Source: a virus. From it: 64,000 bases of DNA. A program made the translations under genes and the position numbers. The stretch lies in the UHGV virus genome UHGV-1378817; one strand, given 5' to 3'. The notes under the pieces were generated by a model that searched no databases, was not told the DNA's origin, and saw only the letters and a program-made list of their open reading frames with translations. The first letter of the stretch is position 1. Each line of letters opens with the position of its first letter. Below, one piece after another: positions 10,751-56,415 of the stretch.

Positions 10751-10827
10751 TGGTCTCCACGGAGTGATTCGAACACTCGACCTCCTGATCCCAAATCAGG
10801 CGCTCTACCAAGCTGAGCTACGCGGAG
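10751..10827 (-). tRNA. tRNA-Pro (anticodon UGG)
   Basis: Cloverleaf read by hand: 7-bp acceptor, D arm GCTC/GAGC, anticodon arm CCTGA-TTTGGGA-TCAGG, T loop TTCGAAT, encoded CCA. Confidence 0.8.
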
Positions 10828-10838
10828 TATTTATTATT

Positions 10839-10913
10839 TGGTGGCCCTGGGTGGAATTGAACCACCGTCTGGCGATTATGAGTCGCTTGCTTGAACCTTC
10901 CAGCTACAGGGCC
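10839..10913 (-). tRNA. tRNA-Met or Ile2 (anticodon CAU)
   Basis: Acceptor GGCCCTG/CAGGGCC, anticodon arm GCGA-CTCATAA-TCGC, T loop TTCAATT, encoded CCA. Confidence 0.7.
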
Positions 10914-10914
10914 A

Positions 10915-10990
10915 TGGTGCTGATAGCAGGACTCGAACCTGCAACCTATTGATTACAAATCAATTGCACTACCAATTGTGCTACATCAGC
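10915..10990 (-). tRNA. tRNA-Thr (anticodon UGU)
   Basis: Acceptor GCTGATG, D arm GCAC/GTGC, anticodon arm ATTGA-TTTGTAA-TCAAT, T loop TTCGAGT, CCA. Confidence 0.75.
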
Positions 10991-10995
10991 AAAAA

Positions 10996-11094
10996 GGTGC
11001 TAGGTGATGGAATCGAACCACCTATGTATTCAACGACTACCTCGTCTATTTTCAGGATTAAAAATCCTCGCCCTTGCCAAAGGGCTTACCTAGC
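10996..11094 (-). tRNA. atypical long tRNA-like element (~99 nt; anticodon loop reads UUU with 4-bp stem; long extra arm)
   Basis: Acceptor GCTAGGT/ACCTAGC and canonical T arm GGTGG-TTCGATT-CCATC are clear; anticodon arm and a 30-nt variable region are non-canonical; 3' end ACC not CCA. Confidence 0.35.
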
Positions 11095-11192
11095 TCAGTA
11101 TGTTGACCATGTTGCTAGTCGGCGATGACGACTGTAACATTTGATAATCCGGTTCTGCTTCCGGCTTTCGCTTAATTACAAGGTCAACAATA

Positions 11193-11283
11193 TGGCTGAG
11201 GGTAATGGAATCGAACCATCATCGAGTCATCCTCAACGGGACGGTTTTCAAGACCGCTTGAGCACCATTGCTCCCTACCCTCA
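11193..11283 (-). tRNA. tRNA-Ser (anticodon UGA), type II
   Basis: Acceptor TGAGGGT/ACCCTCA, 3-bp D stem, anticodon arm GCGGT-CTTGAAA-ACCGT, long variable arm, T loop TTCGATT, CCA. Confidence 0.75.
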
Positions 11284-11397
11284 TTTATAAACAATACTGA
11301 TAATGACACTGATTTTCGAGCAGTTAGTGACTAGTATAAACGACGATAAATATCAATGCCATTATCTGTATGATTTATGCATTTAAAACTATAAATT

Positions 11398-11484
11398 TGG
11401 TGGGGAGTGGTGGAGTCGAACCACCCGAGTCGCAATGACAATAGATTTACAGTCTACACCGCTACCTCTACGGGATAACTCCCC
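11398..11484 (-). tRNA. tRNA-Tyr (anticodon GUA), type II
   Basis: Acceptor GGGGAGT/ACTCCCC, anticodon arm GTAGA-CTGTAAA-TCTAT, variable arm, T loop TTCGACT, CCA. Confidence 0.75.
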
Positions 11485-11488
11485 AATT

Positions 11489-11563
11489 TGGCACCCCGTA
11501 CTGGACTCGAACCAGTGTCAACGGCTTAGAAGGCCGCTGCTTTATCCACTAAGCTAACAGGGC
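11489..11563 (-). tRNA. tRNA-Arg (anticodon UCU)
   Basis: Acceptor GCCCTGT/ACGGGGT (two G-U pairs), D arm GCTT/AAGC, anticodon arm GCGGC-CTTCTAA-GCCGT, T arm ACTGG-TTCGAGT-CCAGT, CCA. Confidence 0.7.
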
Positions 11564-41873: not shown

Positions 41874-42113
41874 ATGTACAAGTCATTTTCAATCTACTCA
41901 AGACAGGCGAAACACTACACAGAGATCCTGATCACTCAGAAAAAATCTGTGGAAGGTGAGTGGGAATATCACCATAAAATGTTGCGTCCAGACTGGGTTT
42001 TTGATAGACTTATTGCTATGATCCCTCTCGGAGAAGTATACCCTCTGACAGCCCATCGCGATGCTTGGGATTTAATTGATTACATAGATTCATTTAAGGA
42101 GCCTAGATTATGA
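41874..42113 (+). CDS. hypothetical protein
   Basis: Start set to ATG 41874 with AGAGGGGG SD. Confidence 0.4.
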   Translation: MYKSFSIYSRQAKHYTEILITQKKSVEGEWEYHHKMLRPDWVFDRLIAMIPLGEVYPLTAHRDAWDLIDYIDSFKEPRL

Positions 42114-42508
42114 AGATTGAGATTACTAAAGAAGGTAATAAAGTGTCCGGCAACTATGCAACAGTAATTCGGGATTTAATGTTTGAAGCCACCAAGATCG
42201 GTACATCTAAAGTTGGTCAAACTGTTAGTGTGAAAAGTAATATCGCCACAGGAGAGAAGGTATTCATTGTGGTCAAAGGGCAGGATCCCGTGGAAGGAAC
42301 AGTGGGCCGAGGTGGCTACCTGTGCATTTCTGAAGAGCCGCGTATGTTAGTGGCTGACGCTACTATGGGTGGGAAACGTGTGTGCGAGGCGGATGAGGTA
42401 ATGATTATCCAACCTGTTGATCCAGATGACCCAGCAACTTGGGTGGTAGGAAATGAAATCTTCTCTTTAGAAGAGTTATCCTTCCCAGCACCGCGCTCTG
42501 TTCAGTAA
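42110..42508 (+). CDS. hypothetical protein
   Basis: 132 aa; ATGA overlap with previous gene. Confidence 0.4.
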   Translation: MKIEITKEGNKVSGNYATVIRDLMFEATKIGTSKVGQTVSVKSNIATGEKVFIVVKGQDPVEGTVGRGGYLCISEEPRMLVADATMGGKRVCEADEVMIIQPVDPDDPATWVVGNEIFSLEELSFPAPRSVQ

Positions 42509-42545: not shown

Positions 42546-42779
42546 ATGAAAGTTAAATTTCTTACAGATTTAGGGTACCCTTCCTTGGTTGACTGTGTTG
42601 GTAAAATTGTGGAAGCAAAACGGCTATCTGCAAACGAGAATGTTGTCCTGGTTAAAGGGAAGGATTTACTAGCTGCAGGTGCAGAGTCTGGCAGGATCTC
42701 TCCTGATTATATGTATTACCTATCTTTAAGTAATCTGCCAGAGCGAGGCGGTAAAGGCCTTGAAGTTGTGGAGGAGTGA
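42546..42779 (+). CDS. small protein, paralog family A (MKVK...G.DL[IL]AAGA...VEE)
   Basis: Shares N-terminal MKVKFL, central KGKDLLAAGAESG and C-terminal EVVEE with 46201 and 46418 ORFs. Confidence 0.45.
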   Translation: MKVKFLTDLGYPSLVDCVGKIVEAKRLSANENVVLVKGKDLLAAGAESGRISPDYMYYLSLSNLPERGGKGLEVVEE

Positions 42780-42784
42780 CAGGT

Positions 42785-43309
42785 ATGCTTCTGATTAACT
42801 GGGAAGACCTCTATGGGGACAAAGACCCTGTTGCGTTTGTTGATCGTAGGTGGAGATACACTGAAGAACAACTGGCGGCAAAAAATTTAACTGCAAAACG
42901 CAGAAAGATCATCCAGTGCAAGTACAAATACGCACAGTTTGCTGCAAAAGTGTCTCCACAAATCGAGAGCTTTGTGCTTAAATTGTATGACGAGTACCTC
43001 AAATTCCAATTGGATTTTGTGCAGGTGTACCGTGCACAGGTACGACCAGATACCAACATATGTAGATGGAAGGTTGTTTGTGAAGGTAAAGATTTGCCGC
43101 TCAGCTTGACAATTGAGTGGCGTTATGGGTATCATGAGTGTGGTCTGTATGATATTTGGGATGTCATTGTAGATCCTGCTAAGCATCTGAACACAGAGGA
43201 GCTGGAATATATCAATAAGGTTATTCTCGATATGTTTTTCAGCTACACACATGAAAACTCTGAGAAAGAACGGGATAATTTTCTTGACACCCTCAGCGAC
43301 CATTTGTAG
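42785..43309 (+). CDS. hypothetical protein
   Basis: Start at ATG 42785 with GGAGGAG SD; 174 aa. Confidence 0.45.
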   Translation: MLLINWEDLYGDKDPVAFVDRRWRYTEEQLAAKNLTAKRRKIIQCKYKYAQFAAKVSPQIESFVLKLYDEYLKFQLDFVQVYRAQVRPDTNICRWKVVCEGKDLPLSLTIEWRYGYHECGLYDIWDVIVDPAKHLNTEELEYINKVILDMFFSYTHENSEKERDNFLDTLSDHL

Positions 43310-43339
43310 TATACAATTTAACCTACAAAGGGAGGACCA

Positions 43340-43567
43340 ATGAGTATAAATGTTGTGCTAATAGGTTACCTGGTAATGTCCGTTATAACAGCGGTATTCT
43401 TGACAGGTGTATGCATCGTGTCCAGACGAAGGGTGAAGTTTGATGATTTTATCACCATCATCACTGCTGCACCTTTTTGGCCTGTTGTTATCTTCATCGT
43501 AATAATGTGCCTAGTTGATTACTACAAGAATATCAGGAAGGAGAGTAGGGATGGAGGCCGCACCTAA
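43340..43567 (+). CDS. small membrane protein (two predicted TM helices)
   Basis: 75 aa; hydrophobic segments VVLIGYLVMSVITAVFLTGVCIV and ITAAPFWPVVIFIVIMCLV. Confidence 0.45.
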   Translation: MSINVVLIGYLVMSVITAVFLTGVCIVSRRRVKFDDFITIITAAPFWPVVIFIVIMCLVDYYKNIRKESRDGGRT

Positions 43568-43786
43568 AACTATCTATACTGTTCTTAAAGAGATTGCGTT
43601 CTACGCAGATCTTAGCCAGGCACCTTTATGGGAAAAGAGCATGTATTTAAAATGGTGCGTTAATTTAGGGAGACCTTCCAGTGTTTCAAGCCATGTTTAT
43701 TGAGATGCTATCTGGGATATTGTTACTGGTAGCCATCTTAGGTGGTGCAGTTCTGATGTATAACTATCTTGAAAAAGGAGACAGCA

Positions 43787-43972
43787 ATGGTAAAAAATAA
43801 ATCTTTAGAGCAGGCTGAAAACCTTCTCCACGAGCTGGTAAAGGAGTGGAAAGTTGAATACTCAGATTTTAATGCACGAGAGGGTGAAGATTATTGGCCT
43901 ACGGAGCGCTCAGAGGGCGAATGGTATCAAGATTTTATAGAGTGGTTATATCAGACGTGCGATGAGGGGTGA
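43787..43972 (+). CDS. hypothetical protein
   Basis: ATG 43787 with AAGGAG SD (track start is upstream TTG). Confidence 0.35.
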   Translation: MVKNKSLEQAENLLHELVKEWKVEYSDFNAREGEDYWPTERSEGEWYQDFIEWLYQTCDEG

Positions 43973-43974
43973 CG

Positions 43975-44439
43975 ATGTTTGTTAAATATGTAAAAACGTG
44001 CCTCAACAGTCTTGGCAGAGAGCATTGGTACACCTTGCTTGAAAAAGGGGAAATTTTAACAAAATCTGGAAAGATAACTTTGATACCTCTTGATAGTAAA
44101 GGTAAAGACCCGTCACGACTTGTTATAGATGATTACGTTACAGGTGTGACGTTCGAGGTCTCTGTGGAGAGGTTAATACGCAGAGCTGGCGGCCCTTATG
44201 ACCGAAGAGAGTATGTTTTCGATTCCGTTACAGAGATGGGGGAGCATCCGTCTTTAATGTTCAGGATGGTAATCAGAGATATGAGGTCATCTATAGATAG
44301 GATCGTAAAGGACATTAAGGAACCTTTTAGAGTAAAAGTTAAGAAGTTTTTCGATTCTAAGATTAACATACTCGCCGTTGCACTAGGTGTAGTTCAACTT
44401 CTGTTAATTTTGCACTATTTTGAACTACTATTTAAGTAG
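43975..44439 (+). CDS. hypothetical protein
   Basis: ATG 43975 with GAGGGG SD; C-terminal hydrophobic segment. Confidence 0.4.
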   Translation: MFVKYVKTCLNSLGREHWYTLLEKGEILTKSGKITLIPLDSKGKDPSRLVIDDYVTGVTFEVSVERLIRRAGGPYDRREYVFDSVTEMGEHPSLMFRMVIRDMRSSIDRIVKDIKEPFRVKVKKFFDSKINILAVALGVVQLLLILHYFELLFK

Positions 44440-44501
44440 TAGTTGAGATATGGCACAAAGGATGTGCCATAGTGAAATAAACTAAGAAAGAGGTAGAGAG
44501 A

Positions 44502-44849
44502 ATGCCAAAGATTAAAACGTTATTACTGTGGGTAGCTGTTTTAGCTTTTATAGGGTACTGGACTTGGGAAACTGAATTAAAAGATATCGGATATACCAGT
44601 CTTGAGAGCAAGGCGTGCATTGGCATAACCGATGCGTTCAGGCAAAATGCTATGGATCACGAATGTGTTGATGCAGATATAGATGAGAAACTGTCTAAGG
44701 ACAAAGATTTTTACCATGGGCATGCTTTACTTGATAGTGGTGACACTGTAGAGTTCTGGTCGTGGTTTCGTGAAGATGGAACAATAAAAACAGCAGTAAA
44801 GATCTCTAACAAAGAGTTAATGCTGTTGCAGCAAAAGGAGGCTCAATGA
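44502..44849 (+). CDS. membrane-anchored hypothetical protein
   Basis: N-terminal TM (LLLWVAVLAFIGYW); 115 aa. Confidence 0.4.
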   Translation: MPKIKTLLLWVAVLAFIGYWTWETELKDIGYTSLESKACIGITDAFRQNAMDHECVDADIDEKLSKDKDFYHGHALLDSGDTVEFWSWFREDGTIKTAVKISNKELMLLQQKEAQ

Positions 44850-45133
44850 TCTGGATATCCTATGCTGATGGCACCATGCTGTATACTGCAGGTACCAGAT
44901 ATGAAGTTCAGGAGAACGATAAAAAATTTATCGTAAAAACATTTGACAAGGACGACAACCTTTTGCTAGAATTGACTTACAAGGTTGGAGAGGTATCCAA
45001 TATCCAATTGGATTGTGGTCATAAAGATAATCCACTCAAAAAACCTGGAATAGGCAAGGCTTCAGAAGAACGTTTGTCTCGTATTGCAGAAAGCGTTTCT
45101 ACACAAAAATCTAAGAAGGGGACTAGAAAATGA
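44846..45133 (+). CDS. hypothetical protein
   Basis: 95 aa; ATGA overlap. Confidence 0.4.
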   Translation: MIWISYADGTMLYTAGTRYEVQENDKKFIVKTFDKDDNLLLELTYKVGEVSNIQLDCGHKDNPLKKPGIGKASEERLSRIAESVSTQKSKKGTRK

Positions 45134-45324
45134 AAAACTTACGTTTTAACACTTATTACTACAACACATTAAATGATTTGTACTATATTGTTCGAAGTAA
45201 AAGTCCTGAAACAGTCCTATTCTGCCGTGAACCCTTCAAAGGGGAGGAAGTAGAGTCTGAGATGAATGTTAGCCAAATCACCTCTTTGTTGCTCTCAGGC
45301 GCAATGGAAGAAGTAATATTCTAA
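45130..45324 (+). CDS. hypothetical protein
   Basis: 64 aa; ATGA overlap. Confidence 0.35.
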   Translation: MKNLRFNTYYYNTLNDLYYIVRSKSPETVLFCREPFKGEEVESEMNVSQITSLLLSGAMEEVIF

Positions 45325-45342
45325 ACCAGGCGGGAGGGTTTT

Positions 45343-45528
45343 ATGAAGCACTATTGCCTGTCTGGTAGAATGGGTGCAGATTGTGATTGGGTTTTCTTAA
45401 AACTTGTCAGCATTCGAGAGTTCATCCCAGAGGAAGAGCAAGAAAGTGAGCTGATGTCATGGATCAACCATTACGGTAACACTTTTCGACATGTTAAGGT
45501 AGAAGAGTTGCCAAGCGAGGCTGATTGA
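45343..45528 (+). CDS. hypothetical protein
   Basis: 61 aa ORF. Confidence 0.35.
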   Translation: MKHYCLSGRMGADCDWVFLKLVSIREFIPEEEQESELMSWINHYGNTFRHVKVEELPSEAD

Positions 45529-45530
45529 CT

Positions 45531-45620
45531 ATGATTGCATCAATATTAACGTTTATGGGTGGCGTGGCATTCGGATTCATTGTTTGCCTGTTTATAGTGA
45601 TTATGTCTATGCGAGGCTGA
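45531..45620 (+). CDS. small hydrophobic peptide (29 aa, single TM)
   Basis: MIASILTFMGGVAFGFIVCLFIVIMSMRG; starts 3 nt after previous stop; below ORF-track cutoff. Confidence 0.3.
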   Translation: MIASILTFMGGVAFGFIVCLFIVIMSMRG

Positions 45621-45623
45621 ATT

Positions 45624-45920
45624 ATGAAACTTTTTGAGTGGTTTAAAAAGTTTAAATATAAAGCTGTAGCCATCGTGCCGTGGTCAATTCAGTGGGTTGA
45701 TGAAGGTGGTCTACCAATACCTGGTGACAAAGATACTGGGTACTGGATTATGATGGAGAACGGGTTTGGAAAGCGAAAGTATACGTGCACAAACTCTACT
45801 CGATCTGCACTTAATAGAGTGCCTGGTTACAAACTTATGGTTGTGTGGAAAATGTCAGGCGTCCCTCCAGCCAATGCTCAATTTCTTACTGACAATCCTA
45901 CCACGGTAGAGGGAGATTGA
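45624..45920 (+). CDS. hypothetical protein
   Basis: 98 aa ORF. Confidence 0.4.
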   Translation: MKLFEWFKKFKYKAVAIVPWSIQWVDEGGLPIPGDKDTGYWIMMENGFGKRKYTCTNSTRSALNRVPGYKLMVVWKMSGVPPANAQFLTDNPTTVEGD

Positions 45921-46204
45921 TAATGAAAAAGATTAACAGTAGTGAAGTCGAGTTTAAACTTGTCGGAAAAGGCACTTACTGGGAAGTTCGTCAAAAGGTA
46001 TATTTGTTCGGTCTTATTCCTTACTGGTCTAAATTCTACTGGGGAGCTAACGAGTGGGGAAGATACGCCACCAAATCAATGGCACTTATTGGTATAGCAG
46101 AGTACATTGCAGCCAGAGATAGGGTTGGAGACACTTATTACTATACTGCGGACGATATTCGTAACAGTGTTTACGTCCCACAACCACCTGATGGAGACCG
46201 TTGA
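45917..46204 (+). CDS. hypothetical protein
   Basis: 95 aa; ATGA overlap. Confidence 0.4.
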   Translation: MIMKKINSSEVEFKLVGKGTYWEVRQKVYLFGLIPYWSKFYWGANEWGRYATKSMALIGIAEYIAARDRVGDTYYYTADDIRNSVYVPQPPDGDR

Positions 46205-46428
46205 TGAAAGTTAAAGTTTTAGATTCAAGCTTCTATATTGGTCAGGAGCCCTTAGTGGGGAAAGTGTTTACTGCTGTCCCTAACGAAGATTACCCCGACC
46301 TTTTAAAAATAAAAGGGGCAGATCTTATTGCCGCTGGTGCATCTCAGGAATGCTTTGACAGTCAGTGGACCTACAACTTTGCCCTAGGTGAGGATGTAGA
46401 GATAGTGGAGGACAATCATGAAGGTTAA
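46201..46428 (+). CDS. small protein, paralog family A
   Basis: MMKVKVL...KGADLIAAGASQE...VEIVED; paralog of 42546 and 46418. Confidence 0.45.
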   Translation: MMKVKVLDSSFYIGQEPLVGKVFTAVPNEDYPDLLKIKGADLIAAGASQECFDSQWTYNFALGEDVEIVEDNHEG

Positions 46429-46672
46429 AATTCTTGATTCTAACGTCTACTTGGGACAATCCTTCCTGAAGGGAAAAGTCGTTCCTGCGGTATACTTTGA
46501 AGGGTTGCCGTGGGATGATCCTGTTCGGCAACATCACAGTTATGTAGGCCACAACGTAGTGTTTATCTTAGGAGCAGACCTGATCACCGCTGGTGCACCT
46601 GAATATTATTTCGGGGAAGAGTCCTATTATGCCTTTGGGGTAGGGTCAGATGCAGATATTGTAGAGCTGTGA
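46418..46672 (+). CDS. small protein, paralog family A
   Basis: MKVKIL...LGADLITAGAPEY...DIVEL. Confidence 0.45.
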   Translation: MKVKILDSNVYLGQSFLKGKVVPAVYFEGLPWDDPVRQHHSYVGHNVVFILGADLITAGAPEYYFGEESYYAFGVGSDADIVEL

Positions 46673-46684
46673 TGGGTAACCGTT

Positions 46685-47083
46685 GTGAAAAATAAACTGT
46701 TCAAAGTTACAATGAAAATTCGCGGAGCTTGGAGCGTAAAGCAAGGGCGTATTCCAGAATTTGAGAAAGACTTCTACGTAGTCTCCACCTCGGAGGAGGC
46801 TGCATGCTGGCAAGCTGGCTATGCCTATGCAAGAACCTGGTACGAAGGATACCAGACTGGGGGCTATGACGGAGAAATTATCAGCAAGAGTGTAGAAGAA
46901 ATTAATGTGTTGACAAGTGAAAAAGTTTTTGTTATAGTGCATCCAGATTCCAGAGTGAAGCATTACTGGAATGCCAGAACAAAAACTTGGACACCGTTTG
47001 CAGATTCTGCTACGCCACTTTTAAACCAGAAAGCTCTTGACTCTGCCCCAAGTTATGGGGTTGTTGAAGAAAAGCTAAACTGA
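46685..47083 (+). CDS. hypothetical protein, paralog family B
   Basis: Paralogous to 48894-49289 (FVIVHPDSRVKHYWNARTKTWTP vs FVMRHPHSNIAYYWDVLNNEWTP); GTG start. Confidence 0.45.
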   Translation: MKNKLFKVTMKIRGAWSVKQGRIPEFEKDFYVVSTSEEAACWQAGYAYARTWYEGYQTGGYDGEIISKSVEEINVLTSEKVFVIVHPDSRVKHYWNARTKTWTPFADSATPLLNQKALDSAPSYGVVEEKLN

Positions 47084-47100
47084 AACAGTGAGGTGCCACT

Positions 47101-47391
47101 ATGATGGATTTAGTTCTGAATATTGATAACGCAGGAGAGCTTAAAGACGATGGTGTAACAAGTATGGACAAACCCTGCTCTGCCGAGGTTGACTCAAAAT
47201 GGACCTACAAGTTTGACGGAGAGATCTTCGCAAATGATGAGAAGGTTGTAGATGCTGCAGCCATTTTGAACGCTTTAGGGTACGACCCTGTGAATTCTTT
47301 GATCAAGGATCCTGTTGAGTTTGCAGAGTATGTTCGAAAAATGGCAGATCTTGCTGTAGATATTTTAAGAACTATCGACAACAAGCTATAA
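47101..47391 (+). CDS. hypothetical protein
   Basis: 96 aa acidic ORF. Confidence 0.4.
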   Translation: MMDLVLNIDNAGELKDDGVTSMDKPCSAEVDSKWTYKFDGEIFANDEKVVDAAAILNALGYDPVNSLIKDPVEFAEYVRKMADLAVDILRTIDNKL

Positions 47392-47396
47392 AACTG

Positions 47397-47425
47397 TTGA
47401 CACAACGCTTCGGCTATAGTATTAT
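47397..47425 (+). promoter_or_regulatory. sigma70-like promoter upstream of hpf-like gene
   Basis: TTGACA, 17-nt spacer, TATTAT. Confidence 0.6.
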
Positions 47426-47474
47426 TGTTTTCAAAGAGAGATAGTTATTCCCTCTTCCTTAAAAGGAACACGTT

Positions 47475-47795
47475 ATGCAAATTGAAATCACTGGCAACAA
47501 TGTAGAAATCACAGAAGGTATGGTATCTTTTATTTCCCGCAAAATGTCCAAGCTGGAGCGTTTACATCCCTCTGTTAACTATGCACGTGTGAGTGTAAAA
47601 GTTGAAAATGATCACCAGGAAGTTATGGCGTTCATTTTTGACAATTCTGGAAAAGAAGTTATTGCCAAGGCTAAAGGCAGTGATGCTTACGAGGCAACTG
47701 ACCGTATGGTAGATGTTGCAGCACGTCAGCTGGCTAAATGCGGTGGAAAGAAAGGTAAGGGGAAAGGCAAAGTAAAGATTGACTTTGGAGAATGA
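47475..47795 (+). CDS. hpf: ribosome hibernation promoting factor / RaiA-like protein
   Basis: N-terminus MQIEITGNNVEITEGM...KLERL...VKVE close to E. coli HPF/RaiA as recalled; Lys/Gly-rich C-terminal tail. Confidence 0.7.
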   Translation: MQIEITGNNVEITEGMVSFISRKMSKLERLHPSVNYARVSVKVENDHQEVMAFIFDNSGKEVIAKAKGSDAYEATDRMVDVAARQLAKCGGKKGKGKGKVKIDFGE

Positions 47796-47804
47796 GGTGC
47801 TACA

Positions 47805-47906
47805 ATGGGTGTGATTAAGAAATTAGTCCCAAATGTAGAGATTGCATGCTTTGAAATTATGTTTGCAATCGCAGTTGTAGTTAATGTGTTAGGTTACGGC
47901 TATTAA
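47805..47906 (+). CDS. small hydrophobic peptide (33 aa)
   Basis: MGVIKKLVPNVEIACFEIMFAIAVVVNVLGYGY; GAGGTG SD; below ORF-track cutoff. Confidence 0.3.
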   Translation: MGVIKKLVPNVEIACFEIMFAIAVVVNVLGYGY

Positions 47907-47932
47907 TATCAAATAATTGAGGAGACCTCTAA

Positions 47933-48202
47933 ATGAAAATTAAATTATTCAAAACTGAGCTGGCAGACAAAAACTGTGGACTGGTTGAAGGCATGATTGT
48001 TGAAGCACAACCAGTGGACTATATGAAGGTGGTTCGTGATGCCCTGGGTGAAGGTTTTGATCTGATGGAGCCAGCTCTGCGAGAAGATGTTATCGAGATG
48101 GCTAAAAAGCACACACCTGAAGGTTTGGTGGTGTTTGTTGCACCGGGTAACGGAGAAGAGTTGATTGTAACTCCTGATGTGTATGAGATTGTAGAGGAAT
48201 AA
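47933..48202 (+). CDS. small protein, paralog family A-like (C-terminal EIVEE)
   Basis: MKIKLFK... N-terminus and ...YEIVEE C-terminus. Confidence 0.4.
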   Translation: MKIKLFKTELADKNCGLVEGMIVEAQPVDYMKVVRDALGEGFDLMEPALREDVIEMAKKHTPEGLVVFVAPGNGEELIVTPDVYEIVEE

Positions 48203-48293
48203 TCCTACTTGGATTAGCATACTTCCTCGATAAGGAAGATCTGTAATTATTTGTGGGAAAGGAATCCCAATCTCTTACCAGAGGTGATACTAT

Positions 48294-48557
48294 ATGATTG
48301 TTTATTTTAAAACTTCAGGTGGATACCCTGATTCTCAAAGTTTGATCGGAAAAACGTGCACAGCATACTCACCTCTTGATGAGGAGGTAAGCGATATTCT
48401 ACGAAATATGTATCGGATTGACCCACAAGAAGCCTTTGATCAAAACCTTGTATTTGTCAAGGGCTCAGACATGAAGTCTTTGGGAGCATTCCCTGAAGCA
48501 GATGATGATGCCGTTTATTCGTTCATGACCCCTTTTGAAGCTATGGTTGTTGGGTGA
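48294..48557 (+). CDS. small protein, family A-like
   Basis: 87 aa; VFVKGSDMKSLGAFPE resembles the family A central motif. Confidence 0.4.
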   Translation: MIVYFKTSGGYPDSQSLIGKTCTAYSPLDEEVSDILRNMYRIDPQEAFDQNLVFVKGSDMKSLGAFPEADDDAVYSFMTPFEAMVVG

Positions 48558-48561
48558 TAAT

Positions 48562-48894
48562 ATGAAAGTACGCTTTATTGGTGAAACAATTCCTGTGCAT
48601 CTCCGGTCTCCTGAGGATTCTGCAGATCTTGCATCTCAAAAGGCGAGAGGTTATGATAAGAAAGTAACCTCAACCGATGTAGTGCTTGAGGCTACCAGTC
48701 TACCTGACCCTGCTGCATTCTTTAATCATTATGGGTACTATTTCAGCAATCTGATGAATATCGGTGAGCTTGTGTTTATCAGTGGTGGAGAGATTGTTAG
48801 CAAGCTTGGCGGCGATCCGGATGTCTTTCATGAAACCTGTCCTTTTGCATTTGTGGTAGGTTCAGATGTGGAAGTTATTGAGGAGGTGCGGTAA
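48562..48894 (+). CDS. hypothetical protein (C-terminal VEVIEE)
   Basis: Start at ATG 48562 (MKVRFIGE...); track 5' extension overlaps upstream gene. Confidence 0.4.
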   Translation: MKVRFIGETIPVHLRSPEDSADLASQKARGYDKKVTSTDVVLEATSLPDPAAFFNHYGYYFSNLMNIGELVFISGGEIVSKLGGDPDVFHETCPFAFVVGSDVEVIEEVR

Positions 48895-49289
48895 TGGTAA
48901 GCCTATACCGTGTTGAGTATAGCTCAGATACTGTATACAACGTAAGAAGCAAAGATCGCAGCGACAGAGTGCAAGAAATGTATGTTCTTGCCGACAGTCC
49001 GTTATCTGCAGCGTTCAAGGCAGGGGCTCTTGCATCTCGTTGGAAATTCGAAGGTGGATCTTTCTATGAAGAAACCCTTGAAGATTCTGTTGTTATTTCT
49101 TCTGTAGAGGTTTCAGATGACTACGAAGGGAAAAAGTTCGTAATGCGGCACCCACACAGCAACATTGCGTACTACTGGGATGTTCTGAACAACGAGTGGA
49201 CCCCAGATCTTCAGAAGGCTACTGTGCTAACACCGTTTTTGGCAGATAAGTTCCCACCAGAAGGTAATTTATCCGCACTGTTTCAGTAA
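48894..49289 (+). CDS. hypothetical protein, paralog family B
   Basis: Paralog of 46685-47083; GAGGAGGTG SD. Confidence 0.45.
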   Translation: MVSLYRVEYSSDTVYNVRSKDRSDRVQEMYVLADSPLSAAFKAGALASRWKFEGGSFYEETLEDSVVISSVEVSDDYEGKKFVMRHPHSNIAYYWDVLNNEWTPDLQKATVLTPFLADKFPPEGNLSALFQ

Positions 49290-49308
49290 TTTTCTTGCAC
49301 ACAGGTGT

Positions 49309-49337
49309 TGACAACGCCAACCCTGTGTGAAATAATA
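49309..49337 (+). promoter_or_regulatory. sigma70-like promoter
   Basis: TTGACA, 17-nt spacer, AATAAT; embedded in inverted repeat CACAGG...CCTGTG. Confidence 0.45.
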
Positions 49338-52076: not shown

Positions 52077-52376
52077 ATGTCTACAAAGGCGGCTAAATAC
52101 TCCTACATGCCATCAACCTCTGCAGAGGTAGACTTTAGTTTCGATGTGTTTCCACTGTTTGAGGCGGTTCTGGCATACCCAACAATACTATCTACTCCTG
52201 AATCACTTGTGCCTGTTAAGTTGCAGAACGCTATGCATTCTATGCACTACAACAATAAATGTAGGCACAGATGGTGTCAGGACGAGGAAAAAGATTTGGA
52301 CAGTTTGAGAGATTTTGACAGTCACCTTTTGACACCTTTCAGCTACTCCAACCTTGATAAGCCCTCATGGGTATAG
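52077..52376 (+). CDS. hypothetical protein
   Basis: ATG 52077 with GAGGTGG SD. Confidence 0.4.
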   Translation: MSTKAAKYSYMPSTSAEVDFSFDVFPLFEAVLAYPTILSTPESLVPVKLQNAMHSMHYNNKCRHRWCQDEEKDLDSLRDFDSHLLTPFSYSNLDKPSWV

Positions 52377-53334: not shown

Positions 53335-53550
53335 ATGAAGATAGAAATATTTGGTGGGGCTGACAACACTCGTGGCCTGATTTACCTTGAATTTGATGAA
53401 TCATACCTGCCAGAGGTGTTAAATATAGACTCTGTTGCTGAGGCTTTGGGAGTAAACCCTAAAGAACTCCACTCTTGTGCTGAGATCGATGGTTGGGAAG
53501 AGACCATGAACATTGATTTCAGTGAAGTAGAGGACGAACCGCTGGACTGA
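53335..53550 (+). CDS. hypothetical acidic protein
   Basis: 71 aa; MKIEIFGG N-terminus; last plus-strand gene before non-coding region. Confidence 0.4.
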   Translation: MKIEIFGGADNTRGLIYLEFDESYLPEVLNIDSVAEALGVNPKELHSCAEIDGWEETMNIDFSEVEDEPLD

Positions 53551-53679
53551 CACACAATTAGCTGCCCGGCTAAAGTGCTGGAAGCGCACCTATAACACAT
53601 CTTTCAACTAAATTTCCTACCACCACAATCACTTACCTCCAACACATGACTGTTTGCTTGTTTAGTGAGCAGTCATGCC

Positions 53680-53707
53680 TTGACATTCTTGCCTATCCTG
53701 ATAAAAT
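53680..53707 (+). promoter_or_regulatory. sigma70-like promoter firing into ORF-poor region
   Basis: TTGACA, 16-nt spacer, TAAAAT; no convincing ORF downstream. Confidence 0.4.
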
Positions 53708-55021
53708 TAAGTTCTTCTCTTTTCTTTTACCGAGTAATTCGGGTTTTCTGTTCTCTTCGGTTTGAAGGGGTATGGAGATACACCTGAGTGAACAGGGTGA
53801 ACAACCGAACCATTGGCTATGGCATTAGCATGGCGAAGCGGACGGGTGACGAAAGAGGGGCCGGAGGACACCAGTCACTGCCATATGATATATGGGTGAT
53901 AACCTGAAGAGTCTGAATAAGTGTTTAAGTACCAGTCAGAGGAAAAGGTGAATGGTAGCCGAAGGGGGAGGGGGGTTTCTTGTATCTTTAATTTGTATAT
54001 TATGTATACACTTGTAAACCAATATCATCTAGATCTGTTTACCACACAAAGTGGATAGAGACAAATATTACCTATTAAACTTGAATTATTTATAGAAAAT
54101 ACCACAACACCACTTAAGTCTTTGATTTTACACACAAATCTTACAGATATTCAACCTCCATATTTAACATACCTGTAACATATTCCATACTCTACCTGCC
54201 TGATCAATTTCCCCAACTACATCCCTCATATTTCCCCTGTCTGTACTACCCTGCCCCACCGGGAGTCCCGTCATATCTGGCTTTCCAGCAAATATCACAC
54301 CCACAAATATCATGCCTGAAGAGGGTTTCATCCCATAATACCTGCCTTGCCTGAAGAGCGCTTCATACACCACGTAAATTTTTTAATTGACCTCCCCTGC
54401 CCCGCCGGAGAGGTTGGCTTTTCCCACACAGACCTGAAGAGTCAGCCAGAAATATCTGAATAGGCCCAGTTCTACCACGATTTTGACCTGACCTACAGGA
54501 GCGCTGCCAGGCGGACGAAATGGGAATACTTCTCATTCTTATAACAATTCTCAAATATCGAGGCAGTGAGGCAAATTAATAGGCCAGGCCGTTCACACAG
54601 TGGCACAACATTTGCAACCTATCTTGTGGGGGTGAATGAGAATACCTATCATTGTGAGAACCATTATCATTACGGGCAATTTAACATAATACCCATTATG
54701 CGCACCACTGGTGATACATACAGGGATTGATAACACGAGTTACAGTTTACGCATATAACAATCATATTTCTTACTATTTGTGTGGGATATAGTTAGCAGC
54801 CGATAGATTAGATATTGACCTGTGGACTTCCAACCGTCTAGACGTCTAAGCGCCCACACAACAAGGCTTATACATACATTACTGAATGTAAACAGGGCCG
54901 CAAAAATGCTACCATACCAGTTTGTAAATTTTCATGCAGCACTTGACAAAGAGGAGGAAAACTTGTCTGACACAATGTCACACAATATGACACAATAACG
55001 GCTGTTACCATTCCATATCTC

Positions 55022-55077
55022 ACTGTTTACGCATAGACTGTTTACGCCTGGATAGTTTACACCTTGACAGTTTACAC
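55022..55077. repeat. four direct iteron-like repeats with exact 15-bp periodicity (ACTGTTTACGC x2, ATAGTTTACAC, ACAGTTTACAC)
   Basis: Repeat starts at 55022, 55037, 55052, 55067; further copies of the core at 54742-54752 and 55493-55502. Confidence 0.7.
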
Positions 55078-55150
55078 AGATATGATAAGCCATGACATTC
55101 GTTTGCATGAAAACAATTAGCAAGTTAACAATTAACAAGTTAATAATATA

Positions 55151-55303
55151 TGACATAATATAAAAGCAGGGCAACTATTAGAAGATCTATAGTTGCCTTG
55201 CTTGTTATGTCATGATTAACTAAATACAAGGCAACTATGATCTGATTAATAGTTTGCAGACAAACTATCACGGGGGTGATGGTTACTGCTTTTATATTAT
55301 GTC
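55151..55303. repeat. ~150-bp element bounded by perfect 18-bp inverted repeats, containing internal GGCAACTAT palindromes
   Basis: Left arm GACATAATATAAAAGCAG (55152-55169), right arm CTGCTTTTATATTATGTC (55286-55303); inside, GGCAACTAT-N10-ATAGTTGCC. Confidence 0.6.
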
Positions 55304-55946
55304 GCGACTCCGTCGCGCCATGCCATTCGTTTGCATAGTTGCCTTATTGTTACAGATAAAATAATTGTATTGTTAATTATTTCTTATCTTTCTATTAGTC
55401 ATCTAATGATTCCGGTTAGTATAGTAACGTACAGTAAACATTAGACGACTAAATATTTCTATGTTTATGATAACCTATCGTGACAATTCCGGACTGTTTA
55501 CGAAAAATGTTGACACCTGAGCTGATTTATGTTATGCAATTTAAACGAATAATTATTTTATGCAGGTATTGACTATTCCGTTATTCTATGGTTGGAATAA
55601 ATACTTAGCAAGCTATAGAATGGTGAGCGTACGTAAATTCTGAGATTTGTCGGCTATAGTTATACTCGATTTTTCACGTAGAACACGCTTTTTGGTTTGT
55701 GTAAGTGTATGACTTATAAAGATTTTTAGTTGTTGACAAGATATTGAAGATGTGCATCAGGTTAAATTTTGTGCAATAGCTGCATTACGTGCAATTTTGG
55801 AAGGAAAACTGGTAAAAATAGCACCGATACCACACAATGAAAGGTTATGCAATAGCTATTTTATATGTATATTTGTACAGTGTGCAGGATTGATGGCTCG
55901 TCAATTATTCCACTTGCCAGGTAGGGCCGTTTATGGTAGGGGAAGA

Positions 55947-55977
55947 GCAGACAAAAAGAAAGGGGCCTAAGCCCCTT
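55947..55977 (-). terminator. intrinsic terminator closing the minus-strand gene block
   Basis: AGGGGC-ctaa-GCCCCT hairpin followed on minus strand by TCTTTTTGT, about 20 nt after stop of 55996-56415. Confidence 0.6.
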
Positions 55978-55995
55978 GATAATTCAGTTAAAAAA

Positions 55996-56415
55996 TTATA
56001 ATGATTCGTATATTTCAAAAATCCGATTTGCCAGGTCGTTACGGTAGCGGAATTTTTCCTCACGTTTGATCATCAGATCTTTAAAGCCGTATTCTTTAAG
56101 CACTTCATTAACTTTATGGCGGCATACCTTCATATTATCTTGAGCGTCACCAATAAACTTGTTGCTGTGGTGCATTGCTTTAATTTCTTCTTCCAGGACC
56201 AGGGCAACTACCCGTACCGGATCAAGCTGGTAGGCGGTAACATCGATGCGGCATTGTAGACGGCTTTTAACGTCTGCCACCGGATATACTGCAACCTCTT
56301 CCCCGTCAACATTGACAATAATTAGTTTACCATCGATTTCGAATCCTTTCGCCGCCGGACCGTGACAAAAAGCGTTATCAAAGCTATATGCCGGATTATT
56401 AGATTTAATGTTCAT
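55996..56415 (-). CDS. hypothetical protein
   Basis: 139 aa ORF with own promoter and terminator. Confidence 0.45.
   Translation of the reverse strand: MNIKSNNPAYSFDNAFCHGPAAKGFEIDGKLIIVNVDGEEVAVYPVADVKSRLQCRIDVTAYQLDPVRVVALVLEEEIKAMHHSNKFIGDAQDNMKVCRHKVNEVLKEYGFKDLMIKREEKFRYRNDLANRIFEIYESL

What the first reader, a model, noticed from the sequence alone, without database searches (positions are those of the whole stretch)
46685..49289. Second paralog pair (family B) interleaved with family A
ORFs 46685-47083 and 48894-49289 share a conserved C-terminal region (FVIVHPDSRVKHYWNARTKTWTP versus FVMRHPHSNIAYYWDVLNNEWTP) but have divergent N-terminal halves, consistent with duplication followed by specificity change.
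Basis: seen in the sequence. Interest (0 to 1): 0.45.

Follow-up and report, generated by a model that had tools for sequence, protein, structure and literature searches.

The report
Diverged paralog pair of phage accessory genes
Two small genes of an rV5-like E. coli phage are real, anciently duplicated copies of a protein family found only in this phage group; a published transposon screen shows they are dispensable on lab E. coli K-12 but needed, non-redundantly, on a clinical isolate, so they are probably host-specific counter-defence factors.

Summary
The window is an rV5-like coliphage (Vequintavirus). ORFs 46685-47083 (B1, rV5 gp137/ORF142) and 48894-49289 (B2, rV5 gp144/ORF149) are homologous over their whole length: BLASTP E=7e-10, shuffle z=17.5. 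The N-terminal halves are weaker but still alignable (z=4.9). Both genes are under strong purifying selection (dN/dS 0.00-0.17).

The family is tiny. It is PHROG 7379, function unknown. A profile search of 1.84 billion proteins found only B1, B2 and two further full-length representatives (a third came from the word-indexed search), all in rV5 relatives. One relative lineage keeps only a B1-type gene and another only a B2-type gene, each at the matching position, so the duplication is old.

Supplementary Tn-seq data for phage Bas54 (HIDEN-SEQ preprint) cover proteins that differ by 1 residue from these. Both genes are non-essential on K-12. On uropathogenic isolate CFE311, insertions in B2 and the two family-A genes upstream fall to zero, and B1 insertions fall about 4-fold. 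The authors do not discuss this.

Most likely reading: non-redundant, host-specific accessory (counter-defence) proteins. The target and mechanism are unknown.

The parts
46685..47083 (+). B1: 132-aa family-B protein (rV5 gp137/ORF142; Bas54 bas54_0157), GTG start, near-neutral to basic (pI 7.8)
   Evidence: ORF. Homology to B2. PHROG 7379. dN/dS 0.04-0.17. Differs by 1 residue from the Bas54 protein. The GTG start is supported because residues 5-10 align with B2, P0007 and P0008.
48894..49289 (+). B2: 131-aa family-B protein (rV5 gp144/ORF149; Bas54 bas54_0150), acidic (pI 4.7). Its ATG overlaps the upstream TAA by one base, and GAGGAGG lies at 48880-48886.
   Evidence: AlphaFold model with pLDDT 75.5.
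48562..48894 (+). Family-A protein directly upstream of B2 (bas54_0151 ortholog, 110 aa from the annotated ATG; the mechanical ORF starts at 48535)
   Evidence: Family-A relation. PHROG 13661. Insertions fall to zero on CFE311 together with B2.
48294..48557 (+). Family-A protein, second gene upstream of B2 (bas54_0152 ortholog, 87 aa)
46418..46672 (+). Family-A protein directly upstream of B1 (bas54_0158 ortholog, 84 aa, PHROG 5009)
   Evidence: Not depleted on CFE311 (log2FC -0.30).
46201..46428 (+). Family-A protein, second gene upstream of B1 (bas54_0159 ortholog, 75 aa, PHROG 5009)
   Evidence: Not depleted on CFE311.
47397..47425 (+). Sigma-70-type promoter (TTGACA-17-TATTAT), in the gap after the 47101-47391 gene that follows B1 and upstream of the HPF gene; corresponds to rV5 P144
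   Evidence: Scan. Annotated as a promoter in the rV5 record.
49308..49336 (+). Sigma-70-type promoter (TTGACA-17-AATAAT, extended -10) immediately after B2; corresponds to rV5 P150. B2 is therefore the last cistron of its unit.

Best explanation
B1 and B2 are two anciently diverged paralogs of a small (about 130 aa), soluble alpha+beta protein family confined to rV5-like phages (Vequintavirus and a few uncultured relatives).

They lie in the long block of small plus-strand genes that carries E. coli sigma-70-type promoters. Each follows two small acidic 'family A' genes, and each is followed, directly (B2) or after one gene (B1), by a sigma-70-type promoter.

They are accessory genes. They are dispensable on laboratory E. 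coli K-12, but individually required for full fitness on the uropathogenic isolate CFE311. B2 is required absolutely, as are its two upstream A genes. B1 is required partially.

I infer that they are host-specific takeover or counter-defence factors that act by binding a host component rather than by catalysis. I also infer that the neutral B1 type and the acidic B2 type have non-overlapping roles.

Shown: homology, age of the duplication, purifying selection, dispensability on K-12, non-redundant requirement on CFE311.

Inferred: counter-defence role, action by binding, cooperation of B2 with the two A proteins.
For: Homology and gene reality: (dN/dS 0.00-0.17).

Narrow distribution:
- About 120 Vequintavirus genomes carry both copies at 95-100% identity.
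- A profile search of 1.84e9 representatives finds only two further full-length representatives, P0007 and P0008.
- The word-indexed search adds P0014.

Old duplication with positional orthologs.

Promoter context.

Dispensability on K-12:
- Phage Bas59 carries a natural 3.8-kb deletion that removes B1.
- In Bas54 HIDEN-SEQ, B1 has 18 of 19 and B2 has 25 of 25 TA sites hit, and both are classed 'Non-essential'.

Conditional requirement, K-12 against CFE311:
- bas54_0150 (B2): 108.3 to 0.0, log2FC -6.77, q=0.
- bas54_0151: 71.0 to 0.0.
- bas54_0152: 142.2 to 0.0.
- bas54_0157 (B1): 255.9 to 57.4, log2FC -2.14, q=0.
- Flanking genes 0149, 0154-0156 and 0158-0168 are unchanged.
- The gene mapping was verified at 1 aa difference.

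The same gene block holds bas54_0140, which the authors report as required against defence system DS-28.

Charge divergence between the two types.

No match to an enzyme family in Pfam, NCBIfam, PADLOC or PDB sequences.
Against: - No defence system has been paired with these genes. The authors tested only the bas54_0063 and bas54_0140 knockouts, against two cloned CFE311 systems.
- The requirement on CFE311 could reflect a host difference other than immunity.
- The evidence is one competitive Tn-seq experiment from a preprint. Its sheets S6 and S7 hold the same table, so the second clinical host could not be checked.
- Depletion of 0151 and 0152 could be polar on B2, because the 0151 stop overlaps the B2 start. 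Against this, insertions just upstream of B1 are not depleted, and the authors argue against widespread polarity.
- Invariant His86, Arg49 and two Trp residues (B2 numbering) do not exclude catalysis.
Confidence: 0.55

Rival explanations
1. They are ribosome- or RNA-associated factors. The fold resembles the eukaryotic/archaeal large-subunit protein eL20/LX, and the genes flank a phage-encoded ribosome hibernation factor. They could bind ribosomes or RNA to bias translation during infection, with an effect visible only in some hosts.
For: - The independent, poorer B1 model also draws PurS and eukaryotic and archaeal ribosome chains in Foldseek, all with E above 0.1.
- An HPF/RaiA homolog lies between the two genes at 47475-47795.
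- The possible distant homolog in phage 4MG ends in a Lys/Arg-rich tail.
Against: - The scores are in the grey zone for a small, common alpha+beta fold. PurS and PaaB, which are protein-protein adaptors, score almost as well.
- There is no sequence match to Ribosomal_L18A/LX in Pfam.
- Bacteria have no eL20 site.
- B2-type proteins are acidic (pI 4.7-5.1), which is unfavourable for RNA binding.
- HPF itself is not conditionally required on CFE311 (log2FC -0.53).
- The L005 lineage has a B1-type gene but no HPF in this region.
Confidence: 0.1
2. They are redundant or drifting duplicates with no distinct roles: a neutral tandem or segmental duplication that has not yet been lost.
For: Both are dispensable on K-12. 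One or the other has been lost in related lineages and in Bas59.
Against: - Both are under strong purifying selection and are kept in about 117-119 of about 120 genomes.
- Only 25-29% identity remains, with a charge shift of about 8 units.
- Each single disruption is deleterious on CFE311 although the other copy is intact.
Confidence: 0.05
3. They are minor virion or morphogenesis proteins, carried in or needed for the particle rather than acting in the host cytoplasm.
For: Two other small proteins of the same block were detected in rV5 virions by mass spectrometry: gp128/ORF133 and ORF152.
Against: The rV5 supplementary gene table records no MS evidence for ORF142 or ORF149. Neither has a signal or packaging motif. 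Both tolerate insertions at essentially all TA sites on K-12.
Confidence: 0.03

Closest known systems
PHROG 7379 (phage protein family of unknown function)
   Same: Both proteins match the 131-position profile end to end (E=4e-74 and 2e-66). The distant orthologs P0007 and P0008 match it too (E about 1e-25).
   Different: Nothing. They are members. The family has no assigned function, and I found no paper that mentions it or the rV5 proteins.
Ribosomal protein eL20 / L18a / archaeal LX
PurS (small subunit of FGAM synthetase) and PaaB
   Different: No sequence relationship and no purine or phenylacetate pathway context. The similarity is at fold level only.
Small early phage counter-defence proteins, e.g. 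bas54_0140 (anti-DS-28) of the same phage group, T4 Dmd, Ocr
   Same: Small ORFan genes in the early accessory region, dispensable on K-12 and required on a particular natural host.
Escherichia phage 4MG gp155 (Seunavirus, 185 aa, hypothetical)
   Same: Three weak but concordant signals point to a distant relative. Foldseek against BFVD gives E=7.6e-3, probability 1.00, TM 0.57. Its only PHROG hit is 7379, at E=0.009 over the same region. hhalign aligns YILAENKESVIFRAGSSIADR with YVLADSPLSAAFKAGALASR.
   Different: hhalign probability is only 4%. The C-terminal HPxS...YYW...W motif is not evident. It carries a Lys/Arg-rich tail, and it is an orphan found only in 4MG.

Membership tests
PHROG 7379 | Significant full-length match to the family profile | tested here: met
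   E=4.3e-74 (residues 2-132 on profile positions 1-131) and E=2.1e-66 (1-131 on 1-131).
Paralog pair from gene duplication | Pairwise similarity above a composition-matched background, over most of the length | tested here: met
   z=17.5, 0 of 5000 shuffles reach the score. N-halves z=4.9, C-halves z=12.6. BLASTP E=7e-10.
Paralog pair from gene duplication | Segmental duplication of an A-B cassette: flanking genes also paralogous and residual DNA similarity | tested here: inconclusive
   The A genes directly upstream of B1 and B2 hit each other (E=7e-5 to 8e-5) and share a C-terminal motif. However, 46201 and 46418 are much closer to each other (E=3e-13). The only DNA similarity left is a 26-nt patch at 85% identity.
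Ribosomal protein eL20/LX (Pfam Ribosomal_L18A) | Sequence match to the family model | tested here: not met
   No such Pfam hit at E<=1. No PDB sequence hit other than aphrodisin at E=0.38.
Ribosomal protein eL20/LX (Pfam Ribosomal_L18A) | Same fold | tested here: inconclusive
Ribosomal protein eL20/LX (Pfam Ribosomal_L18A) | Binds rRNA or the ribosome | not testable with these tools
   Needs sedimentation or binding experiments.
Phage counter-defence (anti-defence) proteins | Dispensable on a defence-poor host but required on a host with additional immunity | tested here: met
   Taken from published data, not from my own computation. Both are non-essential on K-12. On CFE311 they are depleted at log2FC -6.77 (B2) and -2.14 (B1), q=0. 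Gene identity was verified.
Phage counter-defence (anti-defence) proteins | A defined defence system restricts the knockout and not the wild type | not tested
   Only the bas54_0063 and bas54_0140 knockouts were made, and only DS-28 and Gao_Tmn were cloned from CFE311.
Known defence or anti-defence sequence families (PADLOC, NCBIfam) | Profile match | tested here: not met
   No PADLOC hit. The NCBIfam hits have E of 0.03 or more and score far below the cut-offs.

The most novel reading that the evidence does not exclude
B1 and B2 are phage mimics of the eL20/LX ribosomal-protein fold. They would dock on bacterial ribosomes or rRNA and, with the phage HPF encoded between them, remodel translation. 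Their requirement on isolate CFE311 would then reflect escape from a translation-targeting immunity system. The two paralogs would address different ribosomal states or targets.
Probability: 0.07. Interest if true: 0.8.

Novelty: new member of a known kind. Interest (0 to 1): 0.4.

Why it matters
Most genes of large lytic phages have no known function. Here a sequence-level paralog pair connects to an existing but uncommented phenotype. In a genome-wide transposon screen of a near-identical phage, B2 and its two upstream genes are among the most strongly host-dependent genes, and B1 is independently required.

That yields a concrete, testable candidate: a three-gene module plus a diverged paralog, possibly a new counter-defence family with no homologs outside rV5-like phages. 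These phages are widely used in E. coli O157 biocontrol and therapy cocktails, so genes that limit which clinical isolates they can grow on are of practical interest.

In evolutionary terms it is a clean example of an old duplication followed by charge divergence and loss of one or the other copy in sister lineages.

Tried and rejected
- **Third copy in the window.** The 132-aa ORF at 42110-42508 has the same length and is followed by a family-A gene. It is not related: phmmer E=0.47, hhalign probability 0.1%.
- **Remnant of B1 in L002.** The 96-aa ORF that occupies the B1 slot in relative L002 is unrelated (hhalign probability 0.2%).
- **Long proteins P0010-P0013.** They appeared in the exhaustive search at E 3e-5 to 5e-4. 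The two I read (P0010, P0013) are repeat proteins, and all four match in 5 short stretches; I treat them as false positives.
- **Function by sequence.** Pfam, NCBIfam, PADLOC and PDB-sequence searches gave nothing.
- **Fold searches with weak or no return.** The AFDB50 library was unavailable. BFVD gave only the paralog itself and 4MG gp155.
- **Extending the family through 4MG gp155.** This failed because the protein is an orphan found only in 4MG.
- **Family A upstream of the B1 ortholog in lineage L005.** Not detected.
- **Literature.** The rV5 genome paper lists both proteins without homologs or function and does not mention paralogy. CRISPRi-ART used the rV5-like phage EdH4 only for single genes. 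The BASEL paper says nothing about these genes.
- **Phage Alma.** Its truncated B1 annotation (87 aa) may be a frameshift or an assembly error. I did not use it as evidence.
Full report
**What the window is.** The 4-kb stretch around the finding is 97-98% identical to about 120 GenBank records of rV5-like coliphages of genus Vequintavirus, among them rV5, Murica, FFH2, V18 and BASEL phages Bas54 and Bas59. The finding lies in a long run of tightly packed small plus-strand ORFs. In the rV5 record the two genes are rv5_gp137 (ORF 142, 132 aa) and rv5_gp144 (ORF 149, 131 aa), both annotated 'hypothetical protein'. I call them B1 (46685-47083) and B2 (48894-49289).

- BLASTP gives 29% identity over 119 residues, E=7e-10.
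- Among all 454 six-frame ORFs of the window, each protein finds only the other (phmmer E about 1e-10). The next hit is at E of about 0.5.
- The Smith-Waterman score is 115, against 28.2 +/- 4.9 for 5000 shuffles (z=17.5, none reaching it). Split in halves, C-C gives z=12.6 and N-N gives z=4.9, while the cross comparisons are at background.
- Both proteins match PHROG 7379 over its full length.

The N-halves are homologous, and the most variable stretch (alignment columns 1-35) is just as variable between orthologs of different lineages.

Both are real genes. Against four other Vequintavirus genomes, dN/dS is 0.04-0.17 for B1 and 0.00-0.09 for B2. B2 has a GAGGAGG Shine-Dalgarno sequence, and its ATG overlaps the upstream stop codon. 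The GTG start of B1 is supported because its first residues align with the other family members.

**How wide is the family?** Very narrow.
- tblastn against 50,697 phage records finds B1 in 118 records and B2 in 119. All are Vequintavirus, at 95-100% identity.
- Word-indexed searches of 5.8 billion proteins return only near-identical sequences and fragments.
- An exhaustive profile search of 1.84 billion representatives adds two full-length relatives: P0007 (130 aa) and P0008 (129 aa). The four further hits are long proteins matched in 5 short stretches, and I reject them.
- A further search adds P0014.
- IMG/VR adds four uncultured genomes that carry the P0008 type.
- Pfam, NCBIfam, PADLOC and PDB-sequence searches are empty.

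**History of the duplication.** P0008 groups with B1 (37% identity; shared YQxGG(Y/F)(D/N)G and P(S/T)YG motifs). P0007 and P0014 group with B2 (38%; shared SRWKFEG, GKKF and AYYWD motifs). Cross-pairs are 24-27% identical.

Synteny across the three lineages:

| Lineage | B1 slot | B2 slot |
|---|---|---|
| Window (Vequintavirus) | B1 | B2, after two A genes |
| L002 (phage contig in an E. coli assembly) | unrelated 96-aa ORF | B2 ortholog |
| L005 (metagenome, 139 kb) | B1 ortholog | A-A-B2 segment absent, HPF also absent |

No second copy lies within 6-10 kb in either lineage. Conserved neighbours place L002 closer to the window than L005 is: ClpP 69% against 62%, methyltransferase 85% against 72%.

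Two histories fit:
- a duplication older than all three lineages, with one loss in each relative;
- a duplication in the rV5/L002 ancestor, fast divergence of B2, and loss of B1 in L002.

Either way the duplication predates the genus. At DNA level only a 26-nt patch remains, in the ends of the upstream genes.

**The 'family A' interleaving.** Both B genes follow two small acidic proteins of one loose family: 46201 and 46418 before B1, 48294 and 48535/48562 before B2, with another copy at 42546. This fits duplication of an A-B cassette. However, the two A genes before B1 are closest to each other (E=3e-13), so the A history is not simply segmental. The L005 lineage has no detectable A genes before its B1 ortholog.

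**Structure.** With only four sequences, the B1 model was poor (pLDDT 58). With seven sequences, the B2 model reached pLDDT 75.5 and pTM 0.68. It shows a long N-terminal beta-hairpin, a helix (36-53) and a strand, followed by a C-terminal module of three short strands with a helix (114-119) and a final strand.

That C-terminal module carries most of the invariant residues: F82, H86, P87, W95, W102, A109, T110, P121 and G124 in B2 numbering. It also holds most of the high-confidence residues (10-residue blocks 81-130 average pLDDT 80-90, against 44-90 for the rest).

BFVD returned the paralog itself and a 185-aa orphan of Seunavirus 4MG. That protein also weakly hits PHROG 7379 (E=0.009) and aligns over the central Y-x-x-A...A-G...R segment. 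It is a possible distant relative, not a proven one.

**Function: experimental data found in the literature.** A 2025 preprint (doi 10.1101/2025.11.20.689424) reports saturating transposon mutagenesis, called HIDEN-SEQ, of phage Bas54 (MaxBurger, MZ501093). I mapped the genes by synteny and translation:
- B1 = bas54_0157
- B2 = bas54_0150 (each differs by 1 residue from the window protein)
- the two A genes before B2 = bas54_0151 and bas54_0152
- the two A genes before B1 = bas54_0158 and bas54_0159
- HPF = bas54_0155

On K-12, B1 has 18 of 19 and B2 has 25 of 25 TA sites hit, and both are classed 'Non-essential'. Phage Bas59 independently carries a natural 3.8-kb deletion, corresponding to window 43182-46997, that removes B1 and yet grows on K-12.

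Results of the competitive assay, K-12 BW25113 against uropathogenic isolate CFE311:

| Gene | Identity | Mean insertions, K-12 to CFE311 | log2FC | q |
|---|---|---|---|---|
| bas54_0150 | B2 | 108.3 to 0.0 | -6.77 | 0 |
| bas54_0151 | A gene upstream of B2 | 71.0 to 0.0 | -6.17 | 0 |
| bas54_0152 | A gene upstream of B2 | 142.2 to 0.0 | -7.16 | 0 |
| bas54_0157 | B1 | 255.9 to 57.4 | -2.14 | 0 |

The neighbours 0149, 0154-0156 (including HPF) and 0158-0168 are unaffected.

The effect on the B2 module is as strong as that on bas54_0063 (-7.23) and bas54_0140 (-5.48). Those are the two genes the authors validated against defence system DS-28 of CFE311. The paper's text does not mention 0150-0152 or 0157, and no knockouts of them were made.

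Caveats:
- It is a single experiment in a preprint.
- Sheets S6 ('CFE303') and S7 ('CFE311') hold the same table, and the console line names the '311' sample. The second clinical host could therefore not be examined.
- Depletion of 0151 and 0152 might be polar on B2. Against that, insertions in 0158, just upstream of B1, are not depleted, and the authors argue against widespread polarity.

**Interpretation.** The facts are:
- small ORFan genes in a block carrying sigma-70-type promoters;
- dispensable on K-12;
- strongly conserved within the genus but evolving fast between lineages (37-38% identity, against 44-87% for neighbouring genes);
- required on one natural isolate, and lying in the same block as a validated anti-defence gene (window 52077-52376 is 98% identical to bas54_0140).

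These best fit host-specific accessory or counter-defence proteins. Each single disruption is deleterious although the other paralog is intact, and the two types differ by about 8 charge units (pI 7.8 against 4.7).

Action by binding rather than catalysis is an inference from small size, the lack of any enzyme-family match, and adaptor-like fold neighbours. The ribosome-related reading (LX-like fold, neighbouring HPF) remains possible but weak. The target is unknown.

**Novelty and score.** The homology is already implicit in PHROGs, and the genes are annotated in more than 100 genomes, so the bare observation is not new. Three things are new here:
- the dating of the duplication and the loss of one or the other copy in related lineages;
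- the fold assignment;
- the link to an uncommented conditional-essentiality phenotype.

This is a new, uncharacterised family within a known kind of thing (phage accessory or counter-defence genes), and it offers a ready experiment. Interest is moderate.

Noticed in passing
window 52077-52376 (+): This ORF is 98% identical to bas54_0140. The HIDEN-SEQ preprint reports that gene as required to overcome the predicted defence system DS-28 of E. coli CFE311. It lies about 2.8 kb downstream of B2 in the same gene block.
   Followed up: partly
window 53551-55995: An ORF-poor region of about 2.4 kb with the lowest GC in the window (0.379). It sits at the GC-skew turning point, between the plus-strand block (last gene 53335-53550, the bas54_0135 ortholog) and the minus-strand gene 55996-56415 (bas54_0134 ortholog). 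The preprint states that no transposon insertions were recovered there, and the rV5 paper marks it 'non-coding'. It may be an origin or another cis-acting element.
   Followed up: no
window 43182-46997: BASEL phage Bas59 (EduardKellenberger) lacks exactly this 3.8-kb segment, with about 15 bp shared at the junction. The deletion fuses the 42776-43309 gene to the last 33 codons of B1 and removes the genes in between. All of these are therefore dispensable on K-12.
   Followed up: yes
window 46910-46938 (+), inside B1: A strong sigma-70-like site (TTGACA-17-TATAGT with an extended -10 TG, 11 of 12 matches) lies within the B1 coding sequence, over the conserved VLTSEK...HPDS codons. It could drive the downstream 47101-47391 gene, or it could be chance.
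   Followed up: no
window 47475-47795 (+): A phage-encoded ribosome hibernation factor (HPF/RaiA, Ribosomal_S30AE) lies between the two paralogs. In Bas54 it is non-essential on K-12 and not conditionally required on CFE311 (log2FC -0.53).
   Followed up: partly
window 42546-42779, 46201-46428, 46418-46672, 48294-48557, 48535-48894 (+): This is 'family A': at least five small acidic proteins (rV5 table pI 3.9-4.5) with a shared MKVK...G.DL..GA...VGSD.E(I/V)(I/V)E pattern and variable internal inserts. The two copies upstream of B2 are conditionally essential on CFE311. The two copies upstream of B1 are not.
   Followed up: partly
GenBank records MG0656xx (hits H1-H3 and others): Eighteen records named 'Campylobacter phage', with host given as Campylobacter jejuni, are about 98% identical to this E. 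coli rV5-like phage. They look like mislabelled or contaminant assemblies.
   Followed up: no
HIDEN-SEQ preprint, Extended Data Table 8, sheets S6 and S7: The sheet labelled K-12 vs CFE303 holds the same resampling table, with the same console line naming sample '311', as the sheet labelled K-12 vs CFE311. The CFE303 result for Bas54 is therefore missing from the deposited file.
   Followed up: yes
window 10751-11563 (-): A cluster of seven tRNA calls (Pro, Met, Thr, Ser, Tyr, Arg and one other). The seventh is a 99-nt call with a four-base 'anticodon', which may be a pseudo-tRNA or an interrupted tRNA.
   Followed up: no
L009 35925-36482 (Escherichia phage 4MG gp155): A 185-aa orphan protein found only in 4MG. 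It is a possible distant relative of family B and ends in a Lys/Arg-rich tail (ERYRLERAEQERRHKEREERKLKRQAKKVK).
   Followed up: partly
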